DNA of 64,000 nucleotides. It comes from Escherichia phage vB_EcoM-Ro111lw. Shown piece after piece: positions 45,452 through 64,000 of the stretch. Under the pieces are notes generated by a model. It was not told the origin of the DNA, ran no database searches, and worked only from the letters and a program-made list of their open reading frames with translations. The stretch is taken from sequence record MH571750.1; one strand, written 5' to 3'. Numbering within the stretch: the first letter of the stretch is position 1; each line of letters starts with the position of its first letter. The translations under genes were made by a program, and so were the position numbers.

Positions 45452-45462
45452 GAGACAAAACT

Positions 45463-46344
45463 ATGAAAACATCTATCCGTGTTACAGTTCATTCACCAAC
45501 TAAAGGGACTCATGAAGAAGAGTTTAACATCGTCCAATTCCCTTCTGGTGAGATTGGTGGACACTTTTCGCCAGAGTTTGTTGATTTTACTGCTTATGCA
45601 GCATCATCTATCAACAATGTGATTATGATTGTAAAAGGTTATGATAAGGACACATTGTTTGCTGTGGCACTTGCTAAAGAAGCAATTGATGATTTAGTAC
45701 CTCATAAGTTTGCTATGAAGACTGCTATCTTTTACTATTTGCCAAATGCACGTTACGACCGTCACATGTTTAAAGGTGATGCAGCAGCTTTGAAAGTGTT
45801 TGCACAACAGGTTAATGCAATGGGTTTTGATGCAGTCTGTGCAGTTGACCCTCACAGCTATGTACCAGATAACCTGTTTAACTGCTTCCAGAGTATTCCT
45901 CAAAAGGAAATTGCAGTCCACTATGCAAATGACCCACTGATTGATTACTTAGTAGCCCCAGATGCAGGTGCTGCTAAGAAGATTGCAGAGACTGCTAAAG
46001 AGGTGGATAAACCATACATCACAATGTCTAAAGTGCGTAACCTTAAGACTGGTGAAATTACTGGTATGCGAATCCTTGATGATGTTGATTTGACAGATAA
46101 AACCGTCATGATTCTGGATGATATCTGTGATGGTGGTCGAACCTTCATAGAAGCAGCGAAACATCTTCGTGAAGCAGGTGCAAAACGTGTGGAACTTTAT
46201 GTAACACATGGTATCTTCTCTAAAGATGTTGAAAACCTTCTTGACAATGGTATCGACCATATTTACACTACAAACTCTTTAGGCGAAGCTAAAGACCGTG
46301 GCTTAACACATTACAGTCAAGTTACTGTAGCAAACCTTGATTGA
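45463..46344 (+). CDS. Ribose-phosphate pyrophosphokinase family protein (PRPP synthetase-like; could be an ADP-ribose pyrophosphate synthetase-type homolog)
   Basis: PRPP-binding loop VMILDDICDGGRTF; about 290 aa; start moved from TTG to ATG (MKTSIRV) with GAGAGAC RBS. Confidence 0.7.
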   Translation: MKTSIRVTVHSPTKGTHEEEFNIVQFPSGEIGGHFSPEFVDFTAYAASSINNVIMIVKGYDKDTLFAVALAKEAIDDLVPHKFAMKTAIFYYLPNARYDRHMFKGDAAALKVFAQQVNAMGFDAVCAVDPHSYVPDNLFNCFQSIPQKEIAVHYANDPLIDYLVAPDAGAAKKIAETAKEVDKPYITMSKVRNLKTGEITGMRILDDVDLTDKTVMILDDICDGGRTFIEAAKHLREAGAKRVELYVTHGIFSKDVENLLDNGIDHIYTTNSLGEAKDRGLTHYSQVTVANLD

Positions 46345-46389
46345 AAGTTTATAAGGACTTAAAAGCCCCATTTTGAGAGAGATTAAAAG

Positions 46390-48171
46390 ATGACTAAATC
46401 ACTTTATGCAGTACCAGCAGGTTTAAACGCAGATGCTTACAAATCTGGTCATGTTTACCAGTACCCTAGTGCAACAGAGTACTTGATGTTCAACCTGACA
46501 CCACGTAGTGACAAATGGTTTAACAGCCCCTTAGCAATTGATGGTGTAGTAGCTTTTGGTATTCAACGTTTCGTTAAAGATTACTTGATAGACCACTGGA
46601 ACGCCACTTTCTTTGAACGTGATAAAAAAGAAGCCATTGATGAAATCTTAGAAGTCATGAATGGTGTTCTGGGTAAAGATGCTATCGGTCGAGAGCATTG
46701 GGAAGCACTTCACGACTTAGGTTATCTACCAGTTGAAGTATACGCTGTAGAAGAAGGTACAGTTGTCCCTATGCGTGTCCCAATGATTGTCTTCCAGAAC
46801 ACTGTTTCAGGTTTCCATTGGGTAGCGGGGTATCTGGAAGATGCTTTCTCTGCTGAGATTTGGAAGGCTTGTACCATTGCAACTATTGCATTGCATTATA
46901 AACGCATCTGTAAGAAGTGGGCTGACCTTACTTGCGACAACGACTTACATTTATCTTATCAGTGCCATGACTTTGCTATGCGTGGTATGTCCGGCTTTAC
47001 TGATGACGCATTTAACGCTGTAGGCCACTTAACCAGCTTTAAAGGAACTGATAGCTTCCCTGCTGTGTATACGGCTAAACGAATCTATGGACAGTCTTAC
47101 CCAATCTCTGATATTGGTAGTTCTGTACCAGCCACTGAACACTCTGTGATGTGTGCAAACATTGCTTGGGAAGGTGGTAATGAGTTGATTGAAGAAGAAA
47201 GACGCTTTAAGGGTGAGTTACAAACCTTCCGTCGTTTCTTAACAGAAACTTACCCAACTGGTATTGCAAGTGTTGTTTCAGACACTTATAACTTCTGGAG
47301 AACTGTGTCAGAAATTTTACCAGCACTTCGTAAAGAAATTATGGAACGTGATGGCAAACTGGTAATTCGTCCTGACTCTGGAGACCCTGTACATATTGTC
47401 ACAGGTTATAAAGCAATCCACTTAGAATGTGCTAAGAAGGCTTATTACGAGCACCTAAGCAAGCTGGAAGCCAGTGACACAATGTTGAATGCTGTTCTGA
47501 ACATGAAGCTTGAAAACATCAACTATGGTATTGCTGGATGGCTACTGTCAGAAGGCTACGAAATGGTTGTTGACAGAGAAGACTTTGAAGTTGCTGATAC
47601 AGTGATGTTGAAGAACGCTTATATGGTTGGTTCTGCAAACGTTGTAACACGCCCTGTAGCAGAGATTGATGGAGCTATTAAGACCTTGTATAACATCTTT
47701 GGAGGAACTATTAACTCTAAAGGTTTTAAGGTACTGGATGAGCACATTGGCCTTATCTATGGCGACTCTATCACGTTGGAACGTGCAAACGAAATCCTGA
47801 AGCGTCTGTATGAAATGGGGTTTGCAAGCTCTAACGTGGTGTTTGGTGTAGGCTCTTACACTTACCAGTACATGACTCGTGACACCTTTGCATTTGCTGT
47901 CAAAGCAACTCTTGCAAGCATTGGTGGCAAAGAGATTATGCTTGCAAAAGACCCTAAAACAGATAGTGGTGTTAAGAAATCTGCCTTTGGTGGTGTAGCA
48001 CCTATGTGGGATGGTGAGAATTTGAAAGCTGTAGATGGCTATGGATTCCAGAGCTTTGCAGATGCACTTGAACATCCAGCTTGTGCTTTACGTTTAGTCT
48101 TTAGCGACTCTGAGCAGTACGGTTACACAACTCTTGGTGATATTCGAAATAATATTGACAAGCAGCTTTAA
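46390..48171 (+). CDS. Nicotinamide phosphoribosyltransferase family protein (NadV/NAMPT-like)
   Basis: 593 aa; adjacent to the PRS-like gene; N-terminal region and size consistent with NAMPT family; family assignment moderately confident, substrate not determinable. Confidence 0.55.
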   Translation: MTKSLYAVPAGLNADAYKSGHVYQYPSATEYLMFNLTPRSDKWFNSPLAIDGVVAFGIQRFVKDYLIDHWNATFFERDKKEAIDEILEVMNGVLGKDAIGREHWEALHDLGYLPVEVYAVEEGTVVPMRVPMIVFQNTVSGFHWVAGYLEDAFSAEIWKACTIATIALHYKRICKKWADLTCDNDLHLSYQCHDFAMRGMSGFTDDAFNAVGHLTSFKGTDSFPAVYTAKRIYGQSYPISDIGSSVPATEHSVMCANIAWEGGNELIEEERRFKGELQTFRRFLTETYPTGIASVVSDTYNFWRTVSEILPALRKEIMERDGKLVIRPDSGDPVHIVTGYKAIHLECAKKAYYEHLSKLEASDTMLNAVLNMKLENINYGIAGWLLSEGYEMVVDREDFEVADTVMLKNAYMVGSANVVTRPVAEIDGAIKTLYNIFGGTINSKGFKVLDEHIGLIYGDSITLERANEILKRLYEMGFASSNVVFGVGSYTYQYMTRDTFAFAVKATLASIGGKEIMLAKDPKTDSGVKKSAFGGVAPMWDGENLKAVDGYGFQSFADALEHPACALRLVFSDSEQYGYTTLGDIRNNIDKQL

Positions 48172-53635: not shown

Positions 53636-54100
53636 ATGAACAATATCATTACGGTAGCACTGGACGATACGGCAAACAAATCTGAAGTAGTTCGTAAAAT
53701 GATTCAAGGTAACTTTGAAGGTAAAATTTTCCGTGCTGTTAATGTAAAAGCTGATGGCAGCATTCGTGAATATCGTGCATTGTTGAACGTTAAGAAGCAC
53801 GTAAAAGGTGTTGGTTCAACGACTGCACACAAAGAAAACCTGATGACTATCTATGATATGGGTAAGGCTTCAGAGTTAGGTGCTGAAGGTATCGTTAAAG
53901 AAGGTGCTCCGTATCGCTCTTTCAATCTGGAAACTACCCTTATGCTTTCCTTTACAAGTGGTTCCAAAACAATCACTTATCTCTTTACTGATGCTGCAAC
54001 GGTATCTGCTATTAAGGATAGCACTGTCAAAGCTGGCGTAGTTGCTGCTGCAAAAGCTTCTTCGATGGCTGCAAATATCCTTGCTAAAGTCCTCGGTTAA
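53636..54100 (+). CDS. Hypothetical protein (start moved to ATG)
   Basis: Track start TTG; ATG with GAGAGAAG RBS. Confidence 0.5.
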   Translation: MNNIITVALDDTANKSEVVRKMIQGNFEGKIFRAVNVKADGSIREYRALLNVKKHVKGVGSTTAHKENLMTIYDMGKASELGAEGIVKEGAPYRSFNLETTLMLSFTSGSKTITYLFTDAATVSAIKDSTVKAGVVAAAKASSMAANILAKVLG

Positions 54101-54112
54101 GGTTAAGATACA

Positions 54113-54133
54113 GGCTCCTTCGGGAGCCTTTTT
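54113..54133 (+). terminator. Rho-independent terminator
   Basis: GGCTCC-ttcg-GGAGCC followed by TTTTT. Confidence 0.6.
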
Positions 54134-54152
54134 CATTTCAGGAGATTGTTAA

Positions 54153-54500
54153 ATGACATTTAAAGAGTTCTGTCAAGCTACTTTCATAGTTGTTTTCTTA
54201 GTTGGGGCAGGTGTCTGGGGAGGATACTCTTACAGAGACTACCAAGTTGCTGAAACTGAGCTAAACAATGAGAAGCTGATAAGTGTTGCTAAAGATGCTT
54301 ATCAGGAAGGATTAGCTACACTGAGCACCAATTACAAAAATGATTTGAAAGATGTGCTTGCTAAGAATAAGCACACAAAAGAGGTACTAACGTATGAAAA
54401 AACTAAGCCAGAGTTTTATAATGTTTGTGTTACTGATAATTATGTCAGGGTGTTCAACGAACAAAGTGAACAGTACATTCAAAAACTCCCAAGTAAGTGA
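54153..54500 (+). CDS. i-spanin-like protein (N-terminal TM anchor + periplasmic domain)
   Basis: N-terminal TM (FIVVFLVGAGVWGGY) then charged helical region; an out-of-frame lipoprotein ORF overlaps its 3' end. Confidence 0.4.
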   Translation: MTFKEFCQATFIVVFLVGAGVWGGYSYRDYQVAETELNNEKLISVAKDAYQEGLATLSTNYKNDLKDVLAKNKHTKEVLTYEKTKPEFYNVCVTDNYVRVFNEQSEQYIQKLPSK

Positions 54501-54663
54501 GGGTGACAAGTACACTCAAGAAGAATCACGGTATATCATCAAAGGTAACACAGGCAGTGATGTAGCAGCAGCACTTGAGTTCTACCGTGACGGCTTTTAC
54601 CAGTGTACAATTAAAGCTAATAACCTTATTGACATGATTTTATTAGGAAATAAACAGCAATGA
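54394..54663 (+). CDS. o-spanin-like outer-membrane lipoprotein (overlapped with upstream gene)
   Basis: Signal peptide with lipobox-like IMSGC; own RBS AAGAGG 8 nt upstream; starts inside 54153..54500 in a different frame. Confidence 0.4.
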   Translation: MKKLSQSFIMFVLLIIMSGCSTNKVNSTFKNSQVSEGDKYTQEESRYIIKGNTGSDVAAALEFYRDGFYQCTIKANNLIDMILLGNKQQ

Positions 54664-54929
54664 CAGAGAATGAAGATACTTTTTACGTAGAAGGGTACTT
54701 ACTGTTACCACGACCAAAAGAAACTTATATGCGAATTGACTTCATACCAACCATTATGGATAATGTGATGTGTCATATCTTTATGCAGGGTGTCACAGCA
54801 CAGCTTAAGTATGTTGGTAAAGAGTGCAAAATAAAGGTTGACACTCATCCAGAAATCAAAGAGAATCACTACACATGGTTCTTACCAGACTCTAAAGAAA
54901 TCTTAGCAGTTCTTAAAACGAGGAAATGA
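54660..54929 (+). CDS. Hypothetical protein
   Basis: 89 aa, overlapping start. Confidence 0.45.
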   Translation: MTENEDTFYVEGYLLLPRPKETYMRIDFIPTIMDNVMCHIFMQGVTAQLKYVGKECKIKVDTHPEIKENHYTWFLPDSKEILAVLKTRK

Positions 54930-55240
54930 TTATGCAATTCCAGCCAACAAATCGTGGATTTTCTTATGCAGAATTTAAAGATGCTAAAGGGGAAATTTGT
55001 ACTTTACAAGAGAGTTCATCATACGAACCATGTATCTGGTTAGGTGCTAAAGAGGTCTCTGTTCAGTACCTAGATAATGGCTGGAAAACACTTGATATCC
55101 CAGCATTAGTTGGTAAAGATTTTGTAGGTAATCAAAGAATGAAGCTCAATCAAGAACAGGTAAAAGAATTGTTGCCGTACCTCCAATACTTTGCTGAAAA
55201 TGGTGAATTACCAACAGAGGAACTTACAAATGCAGATTAA
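54926..55240 (+). CDS. Hypothetical protein
   Basis: 104 aa. Confidence 0.45.
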   Translation: MIMQFQPTNRGFSYAEFKDAKGEICTLQESSSYEPCIWLGAKEVSVQYLDNGWKTLDIPALVGKDFVGNQRMKLNQEQVKELLPYLQYFAENGELPTEELTNAD

Positions 55241-55556
55241 TGGAAGAGACTTTGTAGCCGTTTACTACGAGAAAGGTAAAGAAGTTGGTGTAGCACAAGT
55301 ATCTTATGGCAATGGTAAGTGGCTATATGGAACAATCGCAGTAGTAGGGACAAGAAGTGATACAAAAACTTTTAAAGATTGTGTTGACCTTCTTGAAGAA
55401 TCCATCCAGAATCATTGGTGTCTGATATGGATGACTGATAACGAAGTGATGGAGCGTTTCAAAAAGATTGATATCAACATTGACAGTATCGAGCATGTTG
55501 ATTTATATGAGCTAACTGAGAAGGTAAACTATGAAAGTAATACTAGCCAGAGATAA
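55230..55556 (+). CDS. Hypothetical protein (start moved to ATG)
   Basis: Track start TTG; ATG MQINGRD with AGAGG RBS. Confidence 0.45.
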   Translation: MQINGRDFVAVYYEKGKEVGVAQVSYGNGKWLYGTIAVVGTRSDTKTFKDCVDLLEESIQNHWCLIWMTDNEVMERFKKIDINIDSIEHVDLYELTEKVNYESNTSQR

Positions 55557-55764
55557 AAAGACCCGTAAAATTGTAAGTTCAGCAGTATTCATAGGGAGAG
55601 ATGAAGTCATCCCGTTTGCAGGAGAAGATGTGTTAACTTACAAGAAGGTGATGAAACGTGAGTTCAGTAACCGTTTCCGTGACTTCTTCTCTGAACCATT
55701 AGAAGACTTTAAAAGCCGTCGTGGTAAAGGTATCATCATTCAAGAGGCAATTATTCATGGCTGA
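55531..55764 (+). CDS. Hypothetical protein
   Basis: 77 aa. Confidence 0.4.
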   Translation: MKVILARDKKTRKIVSSAVFIGRDEVIPFAGEDVLTYKKVMKREFSNRFRDFFSEPLEDFKSRRGKGIIIQEAIIHG

Positions 55765-55957
55765 CTTCTGCAAAGACTGTTCTATCGAAATGTTTGGACG
55801 TGATACAGGTGACTTAAAAGGTCTCATCACTGAAGATGATTTTAAAGCTGGCTACGCAATGCCAGTAATCTGTGAAGGCTGTGGGTGCATCTGGGTAGAC
55901 CACGAAGGACAGCGTGTAAAACCTTCAGAAGATAAAGAATCTTGGGAGAGATGTTAA
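55757..55957 (+). CDS. Small zinc-ribbon protein (start moved to ATG)
   Basis: CKDC...CEGCGC; track start is GTG. Confidence 0.4.
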   Translation: MADFCKDCSIEMFGRDTGDLKGLITEDDFKAGYAMPVICEGCGCIWVDHEGQRVKPSEDKESWERC

Positions 55958-56743
55958 ATGGGTATTGTAAAAATCATCAATGGTGATATCTTTGCTGCAT
56001 TTGATAAAGGTAAGTTTGACGTCATCGGTCACGGTTGCAACTGTATGAACTTAATGGGTGCAGGTATCGCTGACAAGATTTCTAAACTTTACCCAAAAGC
56101 ATATGAGACTGATACAGAAGTTTATCTGTATGCAGGTGGAATAGGCCACAAGCCCTGTGAGAATTTACTAGGCAATTTCTCTGTAGCACGTTTAAAACAA
56201 GGCCGTATAGCTAACCTTTACACTCAGCTTAAGACTGGTAAAGATGCCCGATACAGTGCTTTAGAGTCATCTTTGAAACAGCTTAACAGATACTGTGAAG
56301 TCAATCAGTTGAAGAAAGTCGGGTTACCTATGATTGGTGCAGGTATCGGTGGGCTAGACCCTCAAGCCGTCACAGTTATCATTAATCAGGTGATGAAGAG
56401 TGTAGATGTTTATCTGTATGTCTACGAAGGAGAGATGTACCACAAGTTACGCTCAGGTTGGAAGAACTACTGTGAGCCAGAATACTTTGCAGGTGTAGTA
56501 ACGTTCACAGATGATGCAGTTACCCTCTTCAGACGAAGAAAAGGTAAGATACATCAAAGTAACCCTCCGGTTGAGAAGATGTCTCTAAGTAACGCTCTAG
56601 TTACCCACCTGTCGAAGGGCAATCACAGGATAGCCGTAACATTTGGCAGTGATGCAGATACATATATCTATGCAAGAACTGATGAGGATATCGAGACGGT
56701 CTTCTCTTCATCGGAAGTTACCTTCTTAGACGCAAAGAACTAA
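55958..56743 (+). CDS. Macro-domain (ADP-ribose-binding/processing) protein with about 100-aa C-terminal extension
   Basis: N-terminus VKIINGDIF...DVIGHGCNCMNLMGAGIADKI parallels the macro-domain pattern (GDIT...D.IVNAAN...GGGV..AI); RBS GGGAGAG. Confidence 0.5.
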   Translation: MGIVKIINGDIFAAFDKGKFDVIGHGCNCMNLMGAGIADKISKLYPKAYETDTEVYLYAGGIGHKPCENLLGNFSVARLKQGRIANLYTQLKTGKDARYSALESSLKQLNRYCEVNQLKKVGLPMIGAGIGGLDPQAVTVIINQVMKSVDVYLYVYEGEMYHKLRSGWKNYCEPEYFAGVVTFTDDAVTLFRRRKGKIHQSNPPVEKMSLSNALVTHLSKGNHRIAVTFGSDADTYIYARTDEDIETVFSSSEVTFLDAKN

Positions 56744-56827
56744 GAAACTCTGTATAATATTCACAATATACTAAGCCTTTCTTATCTGGTAAATTTTTCA
56801 GGTAAGGAGGGCTTTTTTATTTCAGGA

Positions 56828-57010
56828 TTGTGCAGGTAGAGTTCTGGACAGAAATCTGTAGAGAAAATTTTGAACTCCAAAGAGAAAATTCATTTTCAAA
56901 CTGTGCAGGTAATCTCCAAAGAGCTTTTTCATTTTCAAAACGTGCAGACCCCGCTCAGGTCGGGCAAGAAAAATCATTTTAGAATTGTGCAGGTAGGTGG
57001 ATGCAGGTGG
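56828..57010 (+). repeat. Tandem degenerate repeats (about 40-45 bp unit) with core CATTTTCAAA-N-TGTGCAGGTA in a 520-bp non-coding gap
   Basis: TGTGCAGGTA-like cores at about 56830, 56902, 56941, 56987 and 57001; AAAGAG...TTCATTTTCAAA precedes three of them. Confidence 0.6.
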
Positions 57011-57171
57011 GGATGTCGCCATTTCTCACAAGGCTAACACATCTGGAAATAAAAGTCAACAGAAAAATTTGTAGCGGATTGAAAAATAATTCTTGATTGT
57101 AGTTCTGTTTTGTGGTAGTCGCGTGCGCCCGTTTCATTACAATTTTTGCAAAAATATTTTTAAAATTCCTA

Positions 57172-57263
57172 TTGACTCTTTGAGTATGGTTATCTAATAT
57201 TTGCATCAACGGGGAGGGAATGACCTTCCCCACTAAGTAAAGTCCTAAACTGGAGATTCTAAA
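57172..57263 (+). promoter_or_regulatory. Type-A cassette 1: TTGACT-N17-TAATAT promoter plus conserved hairpin leader and RBS
   Basis: Leader TCAACGGGGAGGGAATGACCTTCCCCACTAAGTAAAGTCCTAAACTGGAGATTCTAAA immediately before ATG 57264; GGGAA-tgacc-TTCCC hairpin. Confidence 0.6.
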
Positions 57264-57644
57264 ATGGCATACCGTGCACCTAAATTCATCAACAAAGACA
57301 ACTTCCGCAACGCACTGGAGAAGTCACTTGATGAAAAATTTAACGGCAAATTGATTGTTGTTCACGCATTCAATTTTAAGTATGATATTAACGGGAATAA
57401 AATCAACCATTACACGGCAACCATGTTAGATGGTACGCTATCAAGTGAAAAAGCCGTACTGAATGCACTTGCAGGACGTGGTAAAAACCTGATAAGCTGC
57501 AATAAGAGACGTTATCAAGGTGGCGCATATGGTTATGATGATGCTGTTTACCATCTTGAAAATATGGGCTATTCAGTGGAGAAAGCTGGAGCGTCTCAAA
57601 TAATTGGTAGTGATGGTTATGTGACAATCTTCAAAATTAAATAA
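57264..57644 (+). CDS. Hypothetical small protein (cassette-associated)
   Basis: 126 aa, ATG after conserved leader. Confidence 0.55.
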   Translation: MAYRAPKFINKDNFRNALEKSLDEKFNGKLIVVHAFNFKYDINGNKINHYTATMLDGTLSSEKAVLNALAGRGKNLISCNKRRYQGGAYGYDDAVYHLENMGYSVEKAGASQIIGSDGYVTIFKIK

Positions 57645-57650
57645 AAGTAC

Positions 57651-57730
57651 TTTACAAGGGGCTTATAGTTCGATAAAGTAAGCCCCAGATAAAGAGCTTT
57701 ATCACTCAATCCTAAATTGGAGATTCAAAA
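57651..57730 (+). promoter_or_regulatory. Type-B cassette 1: TTTACA + GGGGCTTA...TAAGCCCC hairpin (with embedded -10-like TAAAGT) + conserved leader
   Basis: 8-bp GC-rich stem; followed by AGATAAAGAGCTTTATCACTCAATCCTAAATTGGAGATTCAAAA then ATG 57731. Confidence 0.55.
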
Positions 57731-57988
57731 ATGGCTATTATCAAAAACGTTGTAGTTCCTGCAAAAACTCGTGATGACGCTCGCATCATGGCGAAAAAGT
57801 TAGGCGGGAAAGTGGTTGACAACGGAAAACAATCTGCTGTAAGATGGAGCGTGAAGGCTGATAAGCAACTAACCTTAAAACGCAGTTCAAACAATCTTTT
57901 TAAAGGTGTAAAATCACTCGGTAAAGTGAACGTGTTTACCAAAAAAGGCTATAAAATGCACTTATCATTAACTGGCAATTTAATCTGA
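57731..57988 (+). CDS. Hypothetical small basic protein (cassette-associated)
   Basis: 85 aa. Confidence 0.5.
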   Translation: MAIIKNVVVPAKTRDDARIMAKKLGGKVVDNGKQSAVRWSVKADKQLTLKRSSNNLFKGVKSLGKVNVFTKKGYKMHLSLTGNLI

Positions 57989-57996
57989 TAAAGTAC

Positions 57997-58078
57997 TTTA
58001 CAGGGGGCTTAAAAGCTGATATCTTAAGCCCCAGATAAAGAGCTTTACCACTCAATCCTTAAACTAGGAGATTCAAAA
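57997..58078 (+). promoter_or_regulatory. Type-B cassette 2 (TTTACA + GGGGCTTAA...TTAAGCCCC hairpin + leader)
   Basis: 9-bp stem, -10-like TATCTT in 3' arm, conserved leader to ATG 58079. Confidence 0.55.
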
Positions 58079-58591
58079 ATGAAAACTGTAGAAGCTACCT
58101 TTGAAGTTGTAAAAGAAAAATTTTCCATCATTTACGAAGCTGTTAATTGCTTTGAAGCAAGCCATAACCTTGATAATTGGGAGTTTACAGATGACCATCA
58201 AGGCGGCGTGACTATTAAAAACCCCAACTGTCAGCGTAATGATTTTAAATATGCAATCCCTTTACATTACAGCCTTAAACAGCTTTCAAGTGACTATGCA
58301 AAACAAGGCCGGGAAAATCCATCAAAAGAGGCTTACATAAGCTTACAGAAAGAACTAGAAAGAGATTTAGAGGCTTCAGAATACAACCTTGCCGCGAAAG
58401 TTGTCGATGCAAATGGTCAAACAATTTTAGATAGTTTTTATATTGGTTACGCTTTCGATTGGTGCTATAGTGACGGCGATGATTTAGAGGATAGACTAAA
58501 AGAAGAGGTGAGCAATTCAGACGCAGAATCTGAAGTATTAGAACGCTTGGAAGCATTAAAAGATTCAGTGATGAATATCTTTAAGAACTAA
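58079..58591 (+). CDS. Hypothetical protein (cassette-associated)
   Basis: 170 aa. Confidence 0.55.
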   Translation: MKTVEATFEVVKEKFSIIYEAVNCFEASHNLDNWEFTDDHQGGVTIKNPNCQRNDFKYAIPLHYSLKQLSSDYAKQGRENPSKEAYISLQKELERDLEASEYNLAAKVVDANGQTILDSFYIGYAFDWCYSDGDDLEDRLKEEVSNSDAESEVLERLEALKDSVMNIFKN

Positions 58592-58600
58592 ATAGATTTC

Positions 58601-58678
58601 TTTACACGGGGCTATCAAGCTGATAAGATAGCCCCAGATAAAGAGATTTATCAACTATCCTAAACTGGAGATTCAAAA
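58601..58678 (+). promoter_or_regulatory. Type-B cassette 3 (TTTACA + GGGGCTATC...GATAGCCCC hairpin + leader)
   Basis: Different stem sequence from cassettes 1 and 2 but base pairing kept (compensatory changes). Confidence 0.55.
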
Positions 58679-58975
58679 ATGAAATTATCAAATAAAGTCC
58701 GTGAAAATCTAAGCAAGTTACTCAACAAAATTGATTTTATCGAGACATCAAGGAATAGTCATGATGTTATGGAATGGTTACACGGAAAAATCAAAGGCCG
58801 TCGTGTAGTGATTTGCTTATGGAATAGTTGCAGGGAATATAAAAAACCTGTATTACAAGTCAATATCTATGATGATACTTTTAAAAGCCCTGTAAAGTCT
58901 AAAAGTGATTTATTAGAATCCTATGAGATAACTGTAAATGGCAAAGTATCAAGTAAAGAGGAAACACCATGTTAA
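58679..58975 (+). CDS. Hypothetical small protein (cassette-associated)
   Basis: 98 aa. Confidence 0.5.
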   Translation: MKLSNKVRENLSKLLNKIDFIETSRNSHDVMEWLHGKIKGRRVVICLWNSCREYKKPVLQVNIYDDTFKSPVKSKSDLLESYEITVNGKVSSKEETPC

Positions 58976-59301
58976 TGACTGGTATCACTGCAATCATTGC
59001 CATTTTCGCGCTATATAAGGCATATAAAGCCTATAATCTAGCAAATAAGGCAATCACACAGCAGGTTAGCAATAGCCTTGTAGAAAGCTTTCTAGGGCGT
59101 CTCAGTGATGAGCAAATAAAGCGGTTAGAAATGAGCTTCAGATTCAAAGCGAAAACCTATCAGATAAGTGACATCTTCAAGGATGATTTCCAGTTAGTCG
59201 ATGATTATAATTCTCTGATAAATGCTTTAAATATCAGTGACTTAAAAGACTACTACGCTGTAATTGTTCAAGAGTTGAGCAAACGAAAACAAAACTGTTG
59301 A
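58969..59301 (+). CDS. Hypothetical membrane-anchored protein
   Basis: N-terminal hydrophobic helix (MLMTGITAIIAIFALY); RBS AAGAGGAAA. Confidence 0.5.
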   Translation: MLMTGITAIIAIFALYKAYKAYNLANKAITQQVSNSLVESFLGRLSDEQIKRLEMSFRFKAKTYQISDIFKDDFQLVDDYNSLINALNISDLKDYYAVIVQELSKRKQNC

Positions 59302-59390
59302 CACTGATTTTTAGATAGATTAAATTACACATCAACGGGGAGGGAACAACCTTCCCACTAAATAAAGTCCTTAAACTAGGAGATTCTAAA
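59298..59390 (+). promoter_or_regulatory. Type-A cassette 2: TTGACA-N17-TAAATT promoter plus conserved hairpin leader
   Basis: Consensus -35; leader ACACATCAACGGGGAGGGAACAACCTTCCCACTAAATAAAGTCCTTAAACTAGGAGATTCTAAA before ATG 59391. Confidence 0.65.
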
Positions 59391-59663
59391 ATGTATACTA
59401 CTAACAATGGCCTCACTTTGAACGTCACACTACGTCACTATGTAGATGGTGTCATGCACTTTGAAGATTTACAAGCTGAACAACATATCTTAGATTGGCA
59501 AGTCGCAGGACTCCAAAAAACTGCTACGGGATACGGTAAAAAGATTCCAACTAGTTGGAAAGTTCACTATGAAGGACGTTTGCGCAGAATTTATCAAGAT
59601 GTGCAAAGCAATAGCGCATCGAGTTACATTATAGTAAAAGGTGAAAAACTGCATTTAGTATAA
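59391..59663 (+). CDS. Hypothetical small protein (cassette-associated)
   Basis: 90 aa. Confidence 0.5.
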   Translation: MYTTNNGLTLNVTLRHYVDGVMHFEDLQAEQHILDWQVAGLQKTATGYGKKIPTSWKVHYEGRLRRIYQDVQSNSASSYIIVKGEKLHLV

Positions 59664-59668
59664 AGTAC

Positions 59669-59748
59669 TTTACATGGGGTTTAAAAGTTGGTATCTTAAG
59701 CCCCAGATAAAGAGCTTTACCCCTAAATCCTAAATTGGAGATTCAAAA
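59669..59748 (+). promoter_or_regulatory. Type-B cassette 4 (TTTACA + GGGGTTTAA...TTAAGCCCC hairpin + leader)
   Basis: Stem retains pairing through a G-U wobble; conserved leader to ATG 59749. Confidence 0.55.
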
Positions 59749-60153
59749 ATGGCTATTAATAATCGTGAGTTATCAATCTTAAAAGCACGTTTAACCGTTA
59801 ATCGAATCAATGTTATCACGTCATCAGCACCAGACGAGACATTACACAACATTATCGGGAAGATTCAAGGTGTTATCTTAGACGTTGAGAATGTAAAAAA
59901 CTCATTAGCAGACGTTGCAGCAGGTGTTACACTAGACGGCGCACAATATGAAATGATTGACATGTTAGGCAAATCAAAGGTTATGAATAAAGAGTTAGAC
60001 TTAAAAATGTTTCGATTTGCCGTGAAAGTATGGCTATCTGTCGAGTATGATGCTAATTTTGCAATTGCTGATTTCTTTGCCACTTGGTTGCAACGTAACT
60101 TAACAAATCATGATTTTCGTGATATCTGTGATGCAATTTACGCAGAACTTTAA
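59749..60153 (+). CDS. Hypothetical protein (cassette-associated)
   Basis: 134 aa. Confidence 0.55.
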   Translation: MAINNRELSILKARLTVNRINVITSSAPDETLHNIIGKIQGVILDVENVKNSLADVAAGVTLDGAQYEMIDMLGKSKVMNKELDLKMFRFAVKVWLSVEYDANFAIADFFATWLQRNLTNHDFRDICDAIYAEL

Positions 60154-60161
60154 AAATTTTA

Positions 60162-60253
60162 TTGACACTGATTTTTAGATAGACTAAATTACACATCAAC
60201 GGGGAGGGAACAACCTTCCCACTAAATAAAGTCCTTAAACTAGGAGATTCAAA
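60162..60253 (+). promoter_or_regulatory. Type-A cassette 3: TTGACA-N17-TAAATT promoter plus conserved leader
   Basis: Almost identical over about 90 bp to cassette at 59298. Confidence 0.65.
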
Positions 60254-60796
60254 ATGAAATGCTTTCACGGTACTACTCAAGAAAACTTTATCAACCTGAT
60301 TAATAACGGTGATAAACCATCAGGTGTATGGAATTGTTCGGATATGGACGGCAATTTTTACGTGTACCCAGAAAATAAACTCTATGGTGATGATGAGGAA
60401 GAGATAGCATCGGAAGGTATCCAGCAAGCTCTAGGAAATGCCACTATCACGGCAGCTTTTCAGATGAAAACTCAAAATATTGTTATCTTAGAACTTGACA
60501 TTCCAGAGGATGAGCTAAATGATGATTATTCTTGTGATAACATGTCAAATATAGCAAGCTTTACAGAGTACTTTGATGTAAATTGGATTAAAAAGGTCTA
60601 TACAACAGAGTTCAACGCTATGTATTCACCTTTTTGTCTCCCTTCACTGGATAACCCAAATTTGAATTATCTTGATGAAACATTGGAGCTACTTGCTAAA
60701 AGTATCCAACAATCCGACAGTATTCAGGTTTTTTGTGACATCATGGATACACTGACAGAAAACATTGTAGAGAGTGATTTAAAGGTCTTTTTCTAA
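60254..60796 (+). CDS. Hypothetical acidic protein (cassette-associated)
   Basis: 180 aa. Confidence 0.55.
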   Translation: MKCFHGTTQENFINLINNGDKPSGVWNCSDMDGNFYVYPENKLYGDDEEEIASEGIQQALGNATITAAFQMKTQNIVILELDIPEDELNDDYSCDNMSNIASFTEYFDVNWIKKVYTTEFNAMYSPFCLPSLDNPNLNYLDETLELLAKSIQQSDSIQVFCDIMDTLTENIVESDLKVFF

Positions 60797-60862
60797 AAAC
60801 CTATACATTCACCTTATAAACACTGATTAACCCCTTACAGGGGCTTTTAGAGGGCTTAAATC

Positions 60863-61096
60863 ATGCTTACAACCATTTATCTCATCCTTTCTATCTGTAA
60901 CGGTCATTCATGTGACTTTAAAGGGCTTGAAGAGTTTACAGGAAGTAAAGAAAATGCTATTCAGGTTTGCCAGATAGCAAGACAAGACTATCCCGCCAGT
61001 GACGACATTCAATGCTACTTTAAGACAGAAGATGAAGACGGCATCTATTTTGACAGCGTTGACGGTCAATATGAAATTATCATTGAAAAAGACTAG
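60863..61096 (+). CDS. Hypothetical small protein
   Basis: 77 aa; RBS AGAGGG; preceded by CCCCT-tac-AGGGG hairpin. Confidence 0.45.
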   Translation: MLTTIYLILSICNGHSCDFKGLEEFTGSKENAIQVCQIARQDYPASDDIQCYFKTEDEDGIYFDSVDGQYEIIIEKD

Positions 61097-61187
61097 ACAA
61101 GCCTGATAAAAGTCTGTAAATTACACATCAACGGGGAGGGAATGACCTTCCCCACTAAATAAAGTCCTTAAACTAGGAGATTCAAAA
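61094..61187 (+). promoter_or_regulatory. Type-A cassette 4: TAGACA-N17-TAAATT promoter plus conserved leader
   Basis: Leader identical to cassette 1 hairpin version (GGGAATGACCTTCCCC). Confidence 0.6.
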
Positions 61188-61529
61188 ATGGCTTATGTAA
61201 CCGTAATTACCGATAAAGCTGGCTCATCTTGGTCAACTCAGGTTAGTGATAAGATGTCGCCTATGCAGTGCCTAAAATACTTTGAGCAGTGGAACAAAGG
61301 CGAGGATGTAAGCCCCTTTCAAGTGATGCAAATCATCCATACAGATAACGAAGGGAATAAAACGACCTTGAACAGTGAATACTACGCAAGCCGTTTTGAA
61401 ACGAGAAGTAAAACAATGAAGCTTTTACGTGAATCCGGCTATTCTCATATTGCCGCGCTAATCTGGGATGACCTGCTAAAAAGCCAGCGTATCAGCTATG
61501 TAAAACCTGAAAAAATATTCATCAGTTAA
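61188..61529 (+). CDS. Hypothetical protein (cassette-associated)
   Basis: 113 aa. Confidence 0.55.
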   Translation: MAYVTVITDKAGSSWSTQVSDKMSPMQCLKYFEQWNKGEDVSPFQVMQIIHTDNEGNKTTLNSEYYASRFETRSKTMKLLRESGYSHIAALIWDDLLKSQRISYVKPEKIFIS

Positions 61530-61561
61530 TCAATAACTTACAAAAAACTTTTAAAAAAGTG

Positions 61562-61590
61562 TTGACAATACCCCTTGACATTGGTAACTT
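61562..61590 (+). promoter_or_regulatory. Possible additional promoter TTGACA-N17-TAACTT in a 220-bp non-coding spacer (tandem TTGACA hexamers)
   Basis: Two TTGACA hexamers 13 bp apart; no ORF directly downstream. Confidence 0.3.
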
Positions 61591-61658
61591 TGTTCGAGGG
61601 GGTTTATCTAAAAGGGATTCACTTAATAGATTCTTTATAGATAAACTTAAAAAATTGC

Positions 61659-61750
61659 TTGCAAAGGCAAATCAAAACAAGTAAATTACTAATCAACGGG
61701 AAGGGATTAACCTTCCCACTAAGTAAAGTCCTTAAACTAGGAGATTCAAA
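61659..61750 (+). promoter_or_regulatory. Type-A cassette 5: TTGCAA-N17-TAAATT promoter plus leader (hairpin variant GGGA-ttaacct-TCCC)
   Basis: Conserved TAAATTACTAATCAACGGG...ACTAAGTAAAGTCCTTAAACTAGGAGATTCAAA before ATG 61751. Confidence 0.6.
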
Positions 61751-62281
61751 ATGAACAAGTTTCAAGCTATCAACTATATTCGCTCATCCAACGTTATGAC
61801 TAAGCCCGTTAAAGATACCTTCGAATTTCGTTGCAACGGTGTACACTTTGCAACTATCACTAAATCAGAAAACGGGGCTTATTATATACATCGTCGTAAT
61901 GCCTCTACTGTTGTAGTCTCTCACTTTATGCAAGCTGTAGCAGAACTGTTACCGCTATTCTTAGGTATTTACTTAGATGAGTGCAAAAACGTTCGCAACC
62001 ACGTTAAAGACCTTTTAAATGGTTATAAAATGGCTTATGAACGTTCTATCAAGAATCTTAACAAGTTCTATAAAGCCCCTGAAAATACTGTTTCAATGGC
62101 TTACAGTGTAAGCGGTGAGTTGGTTAGCCTCTTTGAAGTGGAAGAAATCGCGTTGCATGACTTACGCCCTAGCGGTTACTCTAAGACACTAGAGGAAGGT
62201 TTAACGTTCAATATCAAGAACTTAGAAAAAACTTTAAAAGATATTGAAAAAGATATTGACGAGACAATCAAAAATCTGTAA
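61751..62281 (+). CDS. Hypothetical protein (cassette-associated)
   Basis: 176 aa. Confidence 0.55.
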   Translation: MNKFQAINYIRSSNVMTKPVKDTFEFRCNGVHFATITKSENGAYYIHRRNASTVVVSHFMQAVAELLPLFLGIYLDECKNVRNHVKDLLNGYKMAYERSIKNLNKFYKAPENTVSMAYSVSGELVSLFEVEEIALHDLRPSGYSKTLEEGLTFNIKNLEKTLKDIEKDIDETIKNL

Positions 62282-62343
62282 ATTGTCAATCAACGGGGGA
62301 TAACCTCCCCCACTAAACAAAATCCTAAACTGGAGTTATCAAG
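62256..62343 (+). promoter_or_regulatory. Type-A cassette 6: TTGACG-N17-TAAATT promoter (overlapping upstream stop) plus leader with compensated hairpin GGGGGA-taacc-TCCCCC
   Basis: Stem sequence differs from other copies but pairing is kept. Confidence 0.6.
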
Positions 62344-62607
62344 ATGGAAAACGTAGAATTAACCACACTTTTACAAATTGCAACCGACAAAGAAGATGTA
62401 GCATTATTCCACCGTATCGAAAGCGATTTGTTCAATGGTGAAATCATTAAAGAATCTTACGAAGTTGTCGGATTCAAAGATGGTAAAGCATTTGGCTTTT
62501 TTGACCTCGACAAAAGCAAAGCGGTTACAATGTACGATGTTCTATCTTGTGAAATTCTGACAAAATACAACGAAAAAAGGCTTGCAACCTACGCCAATAT
62601 GCAGTAA
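62344..62607 (+). CDS. Hypothetical small protein (cassette-associated)
   Basis: 87 aa. Confidence 0.5.
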   Translation: MENVELTTLLQIATDKEDVALFHRIESDLFNGEIIKESYEVVGFKDGKAFGFFDLDKSKAVTMYDVLSCEILTKYNEKRLATYANMQ

Positions 62608-62674
62608 ATTACTAATCAACGGGGAGGGAATGACCTTCCCACTAAACAAAGTCCTAAACTGGAGAATCTAAATT
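62582..62674 (+). promoter_or_regulatory. Type-A cassette 7: TTGCAA-N17-TAAATT promoter plus conserved leader
   Basis: -10 overlaps upstream stop codon; leader with GGGAATGACCTTCCC hairpin before ATG 62675. Confidence 0.6.
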
Positions 62675-62923
62675 ATGTCAACTATCCGCGTAACTGTTAA
62701 TGCTTATGGCTGCCACAAACTTGATGCAAAATTCGATATCGGTGGAACAGATAACACCTTTGACCTTATCAAAATGCTGATTCAGCAGGTGATACCAGAT
62801 TATAACCCTACTGATGACTTCTGGAAAGATGCCGTAAAAGAAGCCATAAACGAGGAATCTCACTACCATTATTGGGGTGACTTGATTGTCTCTCTATACT
62901 ACAGCAAACAAGGCTACAACTAA
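62675..62923 (+). CDS. Hypothetical small protein (last ORF before the repeat region)
   Basis: 82 aa. Confidence 0.5.
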   Translation: MSTIRVTVNAYGCHKLDAKFDIGGTDNTFDLIKMLIQQVIPDYNPTDDFWKDAVKEAINEESHYHYWGDLIVSLYYSKQGYN

Positions 62924-62933
62924 TCGACGCAAC

Positions 62934-62985
62934 GGGGCTAAATAGCCCCAGATACCTTTACAGCCCCTTAAATGGGGCTTTTTTA
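62934..62985 (+). terminator. Tandem hairpins ending in a rho-independent terminator
   Basis: GGGGCT-aaat-AGCCCC then AGCCCC-ttaaat-GGGGCT followed by TTTTTT. Confidence 0.6.
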
Positions 62986-63129
62986 CGTCTATCGAATCCT
63001 TATACAATCCCTTTCCCTTTCCTTTCTAGAATCTTATCAGACCTTAAAAAGCAATAACTCTATAGTCTACTCTATAACCTCTTATCAAATCAACTTAAAT
63101 ATAAGCCAATAACCCCAGAAAGGGGATGG

Positions 63130-63560
63130 CCCATTAAAACGCTCTATAAAGCTCTATAACAGCCTTATCAACCTAACTTAAGCAATCATATTAACCCACT
63201 CTAAAAAGCCCTTTATAGAGCTTCCCAGAGCCTTAAAAGAATCTTATAAGGGTGAAAGCTTATAGGCTGGCTAGTATCTTGTGAATAACTAAACAATCCC
63301 CTTGATAGTCACTAAAAAGCATGTTATAGGGGCTATAAAGTTACTTCAAAGTAACGTAAAAAAGGCTATAAAGTTACGTAAATGCTAGCCCCCTTAACAT
63401 TTTCTTAACAATTTCTTAACAAACCCTACATAGTTATGCTTTTAAGGCACTTGTTAGAGACTTGTTAGCCCCTTGTTAAATCTCTGTTAAGACCACGTAA
63501 AAGCCTTGTAAGAGTCTTTGGCATAGCCTTTAAAGCTCCTATAAAGCCCTATAAAGAGGT
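63130..63560. repeat. (G)CTATAAAG repeat family and palindromes in ORF-free region
   Basis: GCTCTATAAAGCTCTATAAC, inverted CTTTATAGAGC, GGCTATAAAGTTAC twice, CCTATAAAG twice; palindrome GTTACTTCAAAGTAAC and TTACGTAA. Confidence 0.6.
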
Positions 63561-64000
63561 GTCTGTATAGTTGGGGTGTAGATACTAGGAAGAGGTTTAA
63601 AAGAGCTTACAAGGAGCTATAGAGAGCTTTTAAGAGGTATGTTTAAGAGTTCACTAAGAAAGGAAAGGGAACGATAAGGAAGAGATAGTGACCATGTTAA
63701 TAGCTTGTTAAAAAGATTAAACACTTGTTAGAAACTTGTTAATTATCTAATTGGTATTGTTACCAATCCCTAACAAAATAACTCTTTAAAATTAACTTGT
63801 TAGCTCTTGTTAGTCATCTGTTAAGCCTCTGTAAAGACTATTCAGCACTTGTTAGAAAACTGTTAAGCCCTTGTTAGTTCTGTTAAGAAACTGTTAAGAC
63901 CTTTGAAGAGTTGTTAAGAAGATGTGAGAACTGTTAAGAGATTGTTAAGGATATTTTAAAATTTTGCAAAGTACTTGTAAGGGAGCTGTTAAGGGCTACC
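63404..64000. repeat. Array of about 20-25 CTTGTTAG / CTGTTAAG octamer repeats, many phased at 10-12 bp; continues to window end
   Basis: Direct copies at about 63450, 63461, 63472, 63484, 63705, 63724, 63735, 63796, 63806, 63818, 63848, 63860, 63870, 63880, 63891, 63910, 63931, 63942, 63986, plus inverted TTAACAA copies at 63404-63423; no ORF of 60 aa or more on either strand. Confidence 0.7.

What the first reader, a model, noticed from the sequence alone, without database searches (positions are those of the whole stretch)
57264..62923. Accessory region of 13 small ORFs of unknown function
Thirteen consecutive ORFs (77-180 aa) have no recognisable catalytic motifs and individual regulatory cassettes, downstream of the core replication and nucleotide-metabolism genes. 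This is the profile of early host-takeover or anti-defence gene sets, which are often the most novel proteins in a phage. One (58969..59301) has a membrane anchor.
Basis: inference. Interest (0 to 1): 0.5.

Follow-up and report, generated by a model that had tools for sequence, protein, structure and literature searches.

The report
Cassette-driven early gene array, Felix O1-like phage
This is the known but uncharacterised "hypothetical-protein" block of a Felix O1-like phage: 13 real small genes, most with their own copy of a repeated promoter/hairpin/leader cassette that also lets single genes be swapped between relatives. It is a typical phage early-gene array rather than a new kind of system.

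Summary
Thirteen + strand ORFs lie exactly where stated. Each matches one PHROG family full length, and all are under purifying selection (dN/dS 0.03-0.23). The window is a Felixounavirus; the block corresponds to Bas63 g99-g111 and Felix O1 ORF16-23.

The most informative feature is not the proteins. Eleven of the 13 genes are preceded by a ~90-nt cassette: a sigma70-like promoter, a G/C stem-loop and a near-invariant leader. This cassette occurs nowhere else in the 64 kb. It is shared across Ounavirinae, including an Erwinia phage, with compensatory stem changes. It also marks the junctions of single-gene indels and one allele swap. That matches the PeSL cassettes described for T4-like phages.

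Protein functions remain mostly unknown:
- o3 gives a confident model with no fold match.
- o5 has a conserved N-terminal anchor.
- The Felix O1 homologue of o13 was found in virions.

"Early" expression is supported for part of the block. "Anti-defence" is untested here and unsupported by the Bas63 knockout screen. "Accessory" is only half right, since 8 of 13 genes are near-universal in the loci sampled. Verdict: ordinary; a new member of a known kind.

The parts
56773..56814 (+). Intrinsic terminator after the Macro-domain gene; left boundary of the block
   Evidence: 17-pair stem followed by a T-run
57172..57266 (+). Type A cassette of o1: TTGACT-17-TAATAT promoter, hairpin GGGGAGGG/CCTTCCCC, leader CCTAAACTGGAGATTCTAAAATG
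   Evidence: fold -18.7 kcal/mol, z -2.4
57264..57644 (+). o1, 126 aa, basic; phrog_4495; function unknown
57642..57733 (+). Type B cassette of o2: TTTACA-17-TAAAGT promoter enclosed in a long three-part hairpin, then the leader
   Evidence: z -4.3; covariation
57731..57988 (+). o2, 85 aa, very basic (pI 10.8); phrog_5089; variable among relatives
57986..58081 (+). Type B cassette of o3
58079..58591 (+). o3, 170 aa, acidic (-16); confident model without a fold match; Felix O1 ORF16 orthologue, maximal at 5 min
58589..58681 (+). Type B cassette of o4 (22-bp interrupted stem, -30.3 kcal/mol, z -6.2)
58679..58975 (+). o4, 98 aa; phrog_4401
58969..59301 (+). o5, 110 aa, N-terminal transmembrane anchor; overlaps o4 by 7 nt and has no cassette of its own
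59298..59393 (+). Type A cassette of o6 (TTGACA-17-TAAATT; its -35 overlaps the stop codon of o5)
59391..59663 (+). o6, 90 aa; one of the most conserved genes of the block (81-84% identity to distant genera)
59661..59751 (+). Type B cassette of o7
59749..60153 (+). o7, 134 aa; Felix O1 ORF20 orthologue, maximal at 5 min
60162..60256 (+). Type A cassette of o8. In many relatives an extra module (gene x1 plus a type B cassette) sits here; its junctions are two identical 24-nt leader copies
60254..60796 (+). o8, 180 aa, acidic (-24); ADP-ribosyltransferase-like fold; orthologue of Bas63 gp107
60863..61096 (+). o9, 77 aa, acidic, short hydrophobic N-terminus; no cassette, probably co-transcribed with o8
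61094..61190 (+). Type A cassette of o10 (TAGACA-17-TAAATT)
61188..61529 (+). o10, 113 aa; confined to Felixounavirus/Mooglevirus-like phages; Felix O1 ORF21 orthologue, maximal at 5 min
61530..61664 (+). Conserved non-coding element: promoter-like TTGACA-17-TAACTT plus two hairpins. It lies upstream of the small gene x10 in distant genera; in the window only the last codons of x10 survive
   Evidence: 85-99% nucleotide identity across genera; consensus fold
61659..61753 (+). Type A cassette of o11
61751..62281 (+). o11, 176 aa. Cassette plus gene were swapped as one module between otherwise identical phages (76% against 100%)
62256..62346 (+). Type A cassette of o12 (variant stem GGGGGA/TCCCCC)
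62344..62607 (+). o12, 87 aa; present in about half of the relatives; the indel junctions lie inside the cassette hairpin
62582..62677 (+). Type A cassette of o13 (the stop codon of o12 is part of the -10 TAAATT)
62675..62923 (+). o13, 82 aa, fast-evolving; its Felix O1 homologue gp23 was found in virions
62962..62979 (+). Intrinsic terminator; right boundary of the block

Best explanation
The block is the far end of the long rightward early/middle transcription unit of a Felix O1-like myovirus. It is built as an array of plug-in gene modules.

Shown:
- 13 real small genes lie between two intrinsic terminators.
- 11 of them are preceded by a copy of a repeated ~90-nt cassette with three parts: a sigma70-type promoter; a G/C-rich stem-loop, either just after the -10 (type A) or enclosing the -10 (type B); and a near-invariant leader in which a 3-4-bp mini-hairpin partly covers the Shine-Dalgarno GGAG.
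- The cassette is private to this block and conserved across Ounavirinae.
- It lies at the junctions of single-gene insertions, deletions and replacements.

Inferred:
- Host RNA polymerase fires each module directly after infection.
- The type A hairpin lies within a few nucleotides of the predicted transcript start, where it could act as a 5'-terminal stabiliser.
- The long type B hairpin forms only in read-through RNA, where it could attenuate transcription or serve as an RNase III-type processing site.
- The ~25-90 nt of shared sequence gives the phage recombination system the homology it needs to gain, lose or swap modules. This is how PeSL cassettes work in T4-like phages.

The gene products are small proteins that most likely act on the host. 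One is an ADP-ribosyltransferase-like protein (o8), one is membrane-anchored (o5), one is probably carried in the virion (o13) and one is an acidic protein of unassigned fold (o3). Their targets are unknown.
For: Identity and synteny:
- Megablast finds 258 Felixounavirus-type records.
- The gene order matches Bas63 g99-g111 and Felix O1 ORF16-23.

Real genes:
- Full-length PHROG matches for all 13.
- dN/dS 0.025-0.23.

Boundaries:
- Terminators at 56773-56814 and 62962-62979; none on the + strand in between.

Cassettes:
- The sequences are shown.
- Promoter-like sites sit at the expected distance from nine starts (o1-o4, o6-o8, o10, o12). TTGCAA-17-TAAATT sites upstream of o11 and o13 can be read directly in the sequence.
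- All hairpin and leader motif copies lie in 57204-62677, + strand only. In Bas63 all 12 copies lie in g98-g111.
- Fold z-scores are -2.2 to -6.2.
- Among 134 non-B cassettes from 30 related loci, the hairpin is kept with many different stems: GGGGAGGG/CCTTCCCC, GGGAGG/CCTCCC, GGGC/GCCC, GGGA/TCCC and others.
- For the type B stem, 97% of cells are paired against 32-60% when the partner is slid, with GC->UA compensatory changes at two pairs.
- The T and A insertions in the leader always occur together: 89 and 157 distinct cassettes of the two forms, and none mixed.
- Homologous cassettes occur in Erwinia phage phiEa104.

Module exchange:
- The 291-nt x1 module is flanked by identical 24-nt leader copies.
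- The 330-nt o12 module has its junctions inside the hairpin.
- An o11 swap is bounded at 61650-62250 in an otherwise identical phage.
- A gene-content table of 26 loci shows a fixed backbone with optional slots.

Timing:
- Felix O1 ORFs 16, 20, 21 and 22 are maximal at 5 min (PMC3185647).

The PeSL definition matches feature by feature (PMC2839356).
Against: - No transcription start site, promoter activity or RNA processing has been measured for this phage or its relatives. All of that is consensus matching and folding.
- The hairpins lack U-tracts, so they are not classical terminators.
- Orthologues of o4, o6 and o13 peaked at 25 min, not 5 min, in the single low-resolution RT-PCR study.
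- Eleven of the 18 type B stem pairs never vary, so most of that structure is untested by covariation.
- The coupled T/A leader variants lie only 7 nt apart and could be two lineages spread by recombination rather than selected pairing.
- Repeats at indel junctions show where recombination happened. They do not show that the cassettes evolved for that purpose.
- Host-directed function of the proteins rests on one modest fold match and on analogy.
Confidence: 0.7

Rival explanations
1. Anti-defence island: most of the 13 genes are inhibitors of specific bacterial defence systems. They are expressed first so that they disarm the host, and they are exchanged between phages as hosts change.
For: - Own early-type promoters.
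- Presence and absence of o2, o3, o11, o12, o13 and of extra modules x1, x2, x4 and others.
- An allele swap of o11.
- Fast-diverging o4, o5, o11 and o13 (39-58% identity to distant genera, against 64% for the Macro protein).
- The same transcription unit holds proven or likely counter-defence genes: NARP2 (PRPP synthetase and NAMPT), rIIA/B, polynucleotide kinase and a Macro domain.
- o3 and o8 are strongly acidic, as many inhibitor proteins are.
Against: - No homology to any curated family.
- None of the validated counters in the Bas63 screen of 12 defence systems lies in g99-g111.
- Eight genes are near-universal in the loci sampled. o1, o6, o7 and o10 are more conserved than the Macro protein, which fits a conserved host target better than an arms race.
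- Gene-wide dN/dS is low everywhere.
Confidence: 0.3
2. Phage-internal regulators and takeover factors: the conserved members (o1, o6, o7, o10, and o8 as an ADP-ribosyltransferase) redirect host RNA polymerase, the ribosome or nucleoid, and so drive the early-to-middle/late switch. No factor for that switch has been identified in Felix O1-like phages.
For: - The Felix O1 genome paper found no RNA-polymerase-modifying genes and states that temporal control is unexplained.
- o6, o7 and o10 are 72-84% identical across genera.
- The PhageMaP paper describes the stretch that includes most of this block as having 'varying essentiality'.
- T4 uses early ADP-ribosyltransferases on RNA polymerase (established knowledge). 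o8 has that fold.
Against: - Felix O1 itself lacks o1, o2, o8, o9 and o12 yet is viable, so those cannot be essential regulators.
- No DNA- or RNA-polymerase-binding domain was detected.
- No per-gene essentiality values were available to me.
Confidence: 0.25
3. Structural or housekeeping genes wrongly read as accessory: the block encodes virion or assembly components.
For: Felix O1 gp23, the homologue of o13, was identified in doubly CsCl-banded virions (4 peptides, 53% coverage) and peaks at 25 min.
Against: - Only one of the Felix O1 orthologues was detected in virions.
- No gene of the block appears in the text of the Bas63 cryo-EM paper.
- o13 is only 57% identical to gp23.
- Small, variable genes driven by sigma70-type promoters are atypical for structural modules.
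Confidence: 0.1
4. Chance ORFs or mis-annotation in an AT-rich region.
For: The ORFs are short and have no Pfam hits.
Against: - Full-length family matches.
- Conserved order in 26 loci.
- dN/dS far below 1.
- An SD at a fixed distance from each start.
- A high-confidence fold for o3.
Confidence: 0.01

Closest known systems
PeSL (promoter-early stem-loop) cassettes of T4-like phages RB49/phi1, PST and nt-1 (Arbiol et al. 2010, PMC2839356; Comeau et al. 2014, PMC4122927)
   Same: - Intergenic unit with the same parts in the same order: stop codon of the upstream gene, sigma70-like -35/-10, polyG...polyC stem-loop (with G-T pairs) between or over the hexamers or just after the -10, then SD and start codon.
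- Concentrated among small ORFans.
- Sits at the junctions of single-gene insertions, deletions and replacements between close relatives, including junctions inside the stem-loop.
   Different: - Found here in Ounavirinae (about 87 kb, Felix O1-like), not in T4-like phages, with no sequence relationship to the T4-type cassettes.
- The cassette family is confined to one 5.7-kb block rather than spread over several hyperplastic regions.
- The leader, including the SD, is itself near-invariant and folds into an SD-covering mini-hairpin.
- Type B has a much longer (~20 bp) interrupted stem.
- Promoter activity, terminator activity and mini-circles have not been tested.
T7 early region with RNase III processing hairpins between genes 0.3-1.3 (established knowledge)
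   Same: A host-polymerase-transcribed early operon of small host-directed genes, separated by ~20-bp interrupted hairpins without U-tracts.
   Different: - T7 has three tandem promoters at the start and none between genes.
- Here almost every gene has its own promoter.
- RNase III cleavage is only my inference.
ADP-ribosyltransferase superfamily (H-Y-E clade: PARP, Tpt1/KptA, DarT; R-S-E toxins: LT-A, pertussis S1); T4 Alt/ModA/ModB as the phage precedent
   Same: - o8 has an N-terminal strand-helix with HGT, as in KptA/PARP, and a conserved aromatic residue on the third strand.
- It is an early phage gene.
   Different: - No significant sequence match to any ADP-ribosyltransferase family.
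- The glutamate of the triad is not conserved across the family; an invariant DDxSCxNM motif replaces it.
- The protein is very acidic and only about 180 aa.
- Activity is unknown.
Bas63 gp107 and the Bas63 g99-g111 block (PhageMaP, PMC11482910); Felix O1 ORF16-23 (PMC3185647)
   Same: Direct orthologues at 55-98% identity. gp107 has already been described as weakly similar to the NAD-binding domain of RNA 2'-phosphotransferase.
   Different: - The window carries o12 and lacks x1 and x2.
- The cassettes were listed in the Felix O1 paper only as '57-bp and 39-bp direct repeats', without any interpretation.

Membership tests
PeSL-type regulatory cassette | Sigma70-like -35/-10 promoter in the intergenic unit | tested here: met
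   Consensus matches at 9-10 of 12 positions with 17-nt spacing upstream of nine genes (o1-o4, o6-o8, o10, o12). TTGCAA-17-TAAATT upstream of o11 and o13 is read from the sequence. These are sequence matches only.
PeSL-type regulatory cassette | G/C-rich stem-loop placed between or over the hexamers, or just after the -10 | tested here: met
   In type B the arms flank the -10; in type A the stem starts about 10 nt after the -10. The stem is kept with different sequences in relatives.
PeSL-type regulatory cassette | The unit runs from the upstream gene's stop codon to the SD and start codon of the next gene | tested here: met
   All 11 junctions are shown. In several, the stop codon lies inside the -35 or -10 hexamer.
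PeSL-type regulatory cassette | Concentrated among small ORFans in a plastic region | tested here: met
   All copies lie in 57204-62677 of the 64-kb window, and in g98-g111 within 35 kb of Bas63.
PeSL-type regulatory cassette | Insertions, deletions and replacements between relatives have their junctions in the cassettes | tested here: met
   x1 and o12 indels and the o11 swap. Two further events (o3; o8-o9) could not be resolved because the flanks are too divergent.
PeSL-type regulatory cassette | Measured promoter and terminator/attenuator activity; circular excision products | not testable with these tools
   Needs reporter fusions and inverse PCR on infected cells.
ADP-ribosyltransferase superfamily (for o8) | ADP-ribosyltransferase fold | tested here: inconclusive
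   [not shown]
ADP-ribosyltransferase superfamily (for o8) | Conserved catalytic triad (H-Y-E or R-S-E) | tested here: inconclusive
   Across 69 diverse family members, H5-G6-T7 is at least 90% conserved and Y36 is invariant. E80 is not conserved. D91 and S93 are invariant instead.
ADP-ribosyltransferase superfamily (for o8) | Significant sequence match to a curated ADP-ribosyltransferase family | tested here: not met
   - Pfam finds nothing for o8 itself.
- 4 of 69 relatives give sub-threshold PARP hits (best E 0.0087).
- The profile finds nothing among PDB sequences.
- hhalign against E. coli KptA aligns only the HGT strand, with probability 1.9%.
ADP-ribosyltransferase superfamily (for o8) | NAD+ binding or ADP-ribosyl transfer | not testable with these tools
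   Biochemical assay needed.
Known anti-defence protein families | Homology to a characterised inhibitor | tested here: not met
   [not shown]
Known anti-defence protein families | Loss of the gene sensitises the phage to a defence system | not testable with these tools
   Published Bas63 screen: no validated hit in g99-g111 among 12 systems.
Virion protein (for o13) | Detected in purified particles | not testable with these tools
   Only by homology: Felix O1 gp23 (57% identical) was found by shotgun mass spectrometry.

The most novel reading that the evidence does not exclude
The cassette may be more than a promoter repeat. Its near-invariant leader (the SD-covering mini-hairpin plus GAUUCAAAAAUG) and its hairpins could be the operator of a dedicated post-transcriptional switch: a phage RNA-binding repressor or endonuclease that shuts the whole block off together, as RegA and RegB do in T4. 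The same unit would also act as the portable end of a gene-cassette exchange system within Ounavirinae. In this reading o8 is the founding member of a catalytically active, previously unclassified clade of phage ADP-ribosyltransferases (276 clusters at 50% identity).
Probability: 0.15. Interest if true: 0.6.

Novelty: new member of a known kind. Interest (0 to 1): 0.35.

Why it matters
Felix O1-like phages are widely used for Salmonella and E. coli typing, biocontrol and therapy, yet roughly 15 kb of their genome is annotated only as hypothetical. Three practical points follow from this analysis:

- Each gene in this block is a self-contained expression module. That gives a handle for engineering: genes can be removed or replaced at the cassette boundaries, as nature already does.
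- It gives a short list of candidates for host-takeover studies: o8 (ADP-ribosyltransferase-like), o3, o6 and o10.
- It extends the PeSL idea of modular shuffling from T4-like phages to an unrelated myovirus subfamily, which suggests that the principle is general.

None of this changes current concepts.

Tried and rejected
- Rfam scan of 54000-64000 at E <= 1: only chance-level hits.
- Pfam, NCBIfam and PADLOC scans of the ORFs: nothing significant.
- Profile of the o8 family against PDB sequences: nothing.
- BFVD fold search with the o8 model: uncharacterised proteins only, with DarT at E 0.11.
- The afdb50 fold library was not available.
- hhalign of the o8 family against E. coli KptA: a motif-level match only, probability 1.9%.
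- Homologue search for o6: hypothetical proteins only.
- Literature: no transcriptome for any Felixounavirus. Only the Felix O1 genome paper quotes one of the repeat sequences I searched for. The DRT7 trigger in Bas63 is gene 035, outside the block. PhageMaP supplementary tables are not held.
- Global alignments meant to place the o3 and o8-o9 indel junctions failed because the flanking genes are too divergent.
- I considered the hairpins as intrinsic terminators and rejected that as their main role: none has a U-tract, and the scan finds + strand terminators only at the two ends of the block.
- I considered o9 and o11 as membrane proteins. The hydrophobic stretch of o9 is too short and that of o11 contains charged residues.

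Full report
**What the window is.** Megablast of 57000-63200 finds 258 phage records, almost all Felix O1-like myoviruses of Escherichia, Salmonella, Shigella and Citrobacter. The best (Salmonella phage SPJ41) covers 85% of the query at 88% identity; most others cover only 53-55%, in several pieces. The region is therefore mosaic within a well-known genus. Upstream on the same strand lie primase-helicase, aerobic and anaerobic ribonucleotide reductases, a PRPP-synthetase-like gene and NAMPT (Pfam). Next come rIIA, rIIB and polynucleotide kinase, assigned by synteny with Bas63, and a Macro-domain protein at 55958-56743. The block is the last part of this long rightward unit. In relatives it is followed by about 1.6 kb of non-coding DNA and then by convergent minus-strand genes.

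**Checking the observation.** The 13 ORFs are present exactly as listed. Each matches one PHROG family from first to last residue (E 1e-43 to 1e-92), all of unknown function. Pfam, NCBIfam and PADLOC give nothing significant. Orthologues occur in the same order in 25 related loci that I fetched through the neighbouring Macro gene. Median dN/dS against those orthologues is 0.025-0.23 for every gene. These are real, constrained protein-coding genes. The N-terminal hydrophobic segment of 58969-59301 (o5) is kept in all 22 distinct orthologues, although its sequence drifts.

**The regulatory cassettes.** This is the most informative part of the region. Eleven of the twelve junctions that could carry a cassette do so. 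There are two types.
- *Type A* (before o1, o6, o8, o10, o11, o12, o13): TTGACA-17 nt-TAAATT, then ACACATCAAC, then a 6-8-bp G/C hairpin (GGGGAGGG..CCTTCCCC), then ACTAAATAAAGT.
- *Type B* (before o2, o3, o4, o7): TTTACA-17 nt-TATCTT/TAAAGT. The arms of a 9-bp stem (GGGGCTTA/TAAGCCCC) flank the -10, and two outer stems (CTTTA/TAAAG and AAAGT/GCTTT) extend it to about 20 bp.
- *Shared leader.* Both types end in CCT(T)AAACT(A)GGAGATTCAAAAATG.

The cassettes are clearly not chance matches, for five reasons:
- The consensus scan places promoter-like sites in front of nine of the genes, and finds + strand terminators only at 56773-56814 and 62962-62979, the two ends of the block. The TTGCAA-17-TAAATT sites before o11 and o13 can be read directly.
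- Every copy of the hairpin and leader motifs in the 64-kb window lies between 57204 and 62677 on the + strand. In 35 kb of Bas63 all 12 copies lie in g98-g111.
- As RNA the cassettes fold better than shuffled controls (z -2.2 to -6.2).
- Thirty related loci hold 251 distinct cassettes. All 134 non-B cassettes fold, most of them with a G/C hairpin at the same place, and the stems differ widely in sequence.
- On an alignment of 35 type B cassettes, including four from Erwinia phage phiEa104, 97% of cells are paired against 32-60% when the partner is slid, and two pairs show GC->UA compensatory changes. Eleven of the 18 pairs never vary and so say nothing.

The leader folds into a 3-4-bp mini-hairpin that covers the first bases of the GGAG. 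Its two variants differ by a T on one side and an A on the other, and these always occur together: 89 and 157 distinct cassettes of the two forms, and none mixed. The two positions are only 7 nt apart, so this is suggestive, not proof.

**Module exchange.** The gene-content table shows a backbone (o1, o4-o10) in essentially every locus that reaches that far. It also shows variable slots (o2, o3, o11, o12, o13) and optional extra genes (x1, x2, x4, x5, x6, x8, x9, x10). Felix O1 itself lacks o1, o2, o8, o9 and o12. Three events could be resolved to the nucleotide:
- The 291-nt x1 module, absent from the window, is flanked in L004 by two identical 24-nt leader copies.
- The 330-nt o12 module, present in the window and absent from Bas63, has both junctions inside the ATCAACGGGG hairpin region.
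- Two metagenomic phages that are otherwise virtually identical to the window differ only in 61650-62250, that is, in the o11 cassette plus the o11 gene (76% protein identity).

This is the behaviour described for PeSLs in T4-like phages. The PeSL definition has five elements: stop codon, sigma70-like promoter, polyG/polyC stem-loop in one of five positions relative to the hexamers, SD, and start codon. Its signature is junctions of ORFan indels, sometimes inside the loop. All of this is matched feature by feature (PMC2839356). The Felix O1 genome paper listed the type B and type A sequences merely as 57-bp and 39-bp direct repeats and did not count them among its promoters. A text search for four cassette sequences found only that paper.

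**Expression timing.** The only data are RT-PCR time points for Felix O1. ORFs 13 (Macro), 16, 20, 21 and 22 (= o3, o7, o10, o11) peak at 5 min. ORFs 17, 19 and 23 (= o4, o6, o13) peak at 25 min (orthology). 'Early' is thus supported for part of the block only.

**The proteins.**
- *o6.* It is broadly distributed, with named homologues all hypothetical.
- *o10.* It is confined to the Felixounavirus/Mooglevirus group.
- *o13.* Its Felix O1 homologue gp23 (57% identity) was detected in doubly banded virions (4 peptides, 53% coverage).

**Anti-defence.** The Bas63 genome-wide knockout screen validated counters g77, g79, g80, g84, g85 and g130 and triggers g40 and g123. None lies in g99-g111. [quoted passage not shown] Per-gene values were not available to me. 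The anti-defence reading remains possible for the variable members but has no positive evidence.

**Verdict.** The finding is real and correctly located, and the cautious part of its interpretation (early, host-directed) is reasonable. It describes a region already known as the hypothetical block of Felix O1-like phages. What can be added is its architecture: a private family of PeSL-type cassettes that drives each gene and mediates module exchange, conserved as far as Erwinia phages. Also added are an ADP-ribosyltransferase-like assignment for one gene and a conserved non-coding element at 61530-61664. This is a new member of a known kind and of moderate-to-low interest.

Noticed in passing
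window 63390-64000: The non-coding stretch after the block's terminator holds an iteron-like array of CTTGTTAR / TGTTAAG 7-8-mers, several at 11-nt spacing. Ten of the 20 exact CTTGTTAR matches in the 64-kb window fall in 63450-63877, and inverted copies lie at 63391-63423. Erwinia phage phiEa104 has a different repeat (TTCTAAAC..) at the same place (L034 8342-8520). This could be an origin of replication or a protein-binding array.
   Followed up: partly
window 56875-56992: Three direct repeats of 34-45 nt (..CATTTTCAAA.TGTGCAG) lie in the 520-nt gap between the Macro gene's terminator and the first cassette (D12). Four copies of the same core (CATTTTCAATTTGTGCATAG) lie at the same position in Erwinia phage phiEa104 (L034 1051-1195). 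The element is therefore conserved across genera, and its role is unknown. Many relatives carry a 68-aa gene (x2) in this gap; the window does not.
   Followed up: partly
window 61530-61664: This non-coding element is 85-99% identical across genera. It holds a promoter-like TTGACA-17-TAACTT and two hairpins, the second a 17-bp stem with one compensatory change. In Mooglevirus-like loci it precedes a 46-aa hydrophobic gene (x10). In the window only the last codons of that gene are recognisable (..KLLAKANQNK). It may be a small RNA or the leader of a lost gene.
   Followed up: partly
window 45448-48171: PRPP-synthetase-like and NAMPT genes. They are orthologous by position to Bas63 g79 and g80, the NAD+ reconstitution pair shown to counter Sir2-HerA and retron Ec86.
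   Followed up: no
window 55958-56743: A Macro-domain protein (Pfam E 1e-7; phrog_335 'phosphatase') lies 3.5 kb upstream of the ADP-ribosyltransferase-like o8. It could be a writer/eraser pair, but Felix O1 keeps the Macro gene while lacking o8.
   Followed up: partly
L002/L003 15573-16300 against window 61650-62281: Two metagenomic phages that are virtually identical to the window across the rest of the block carry a different o11 allele (76% protein identity). Their o11 cassette has no G/C hairpin.
   Followed up: yes
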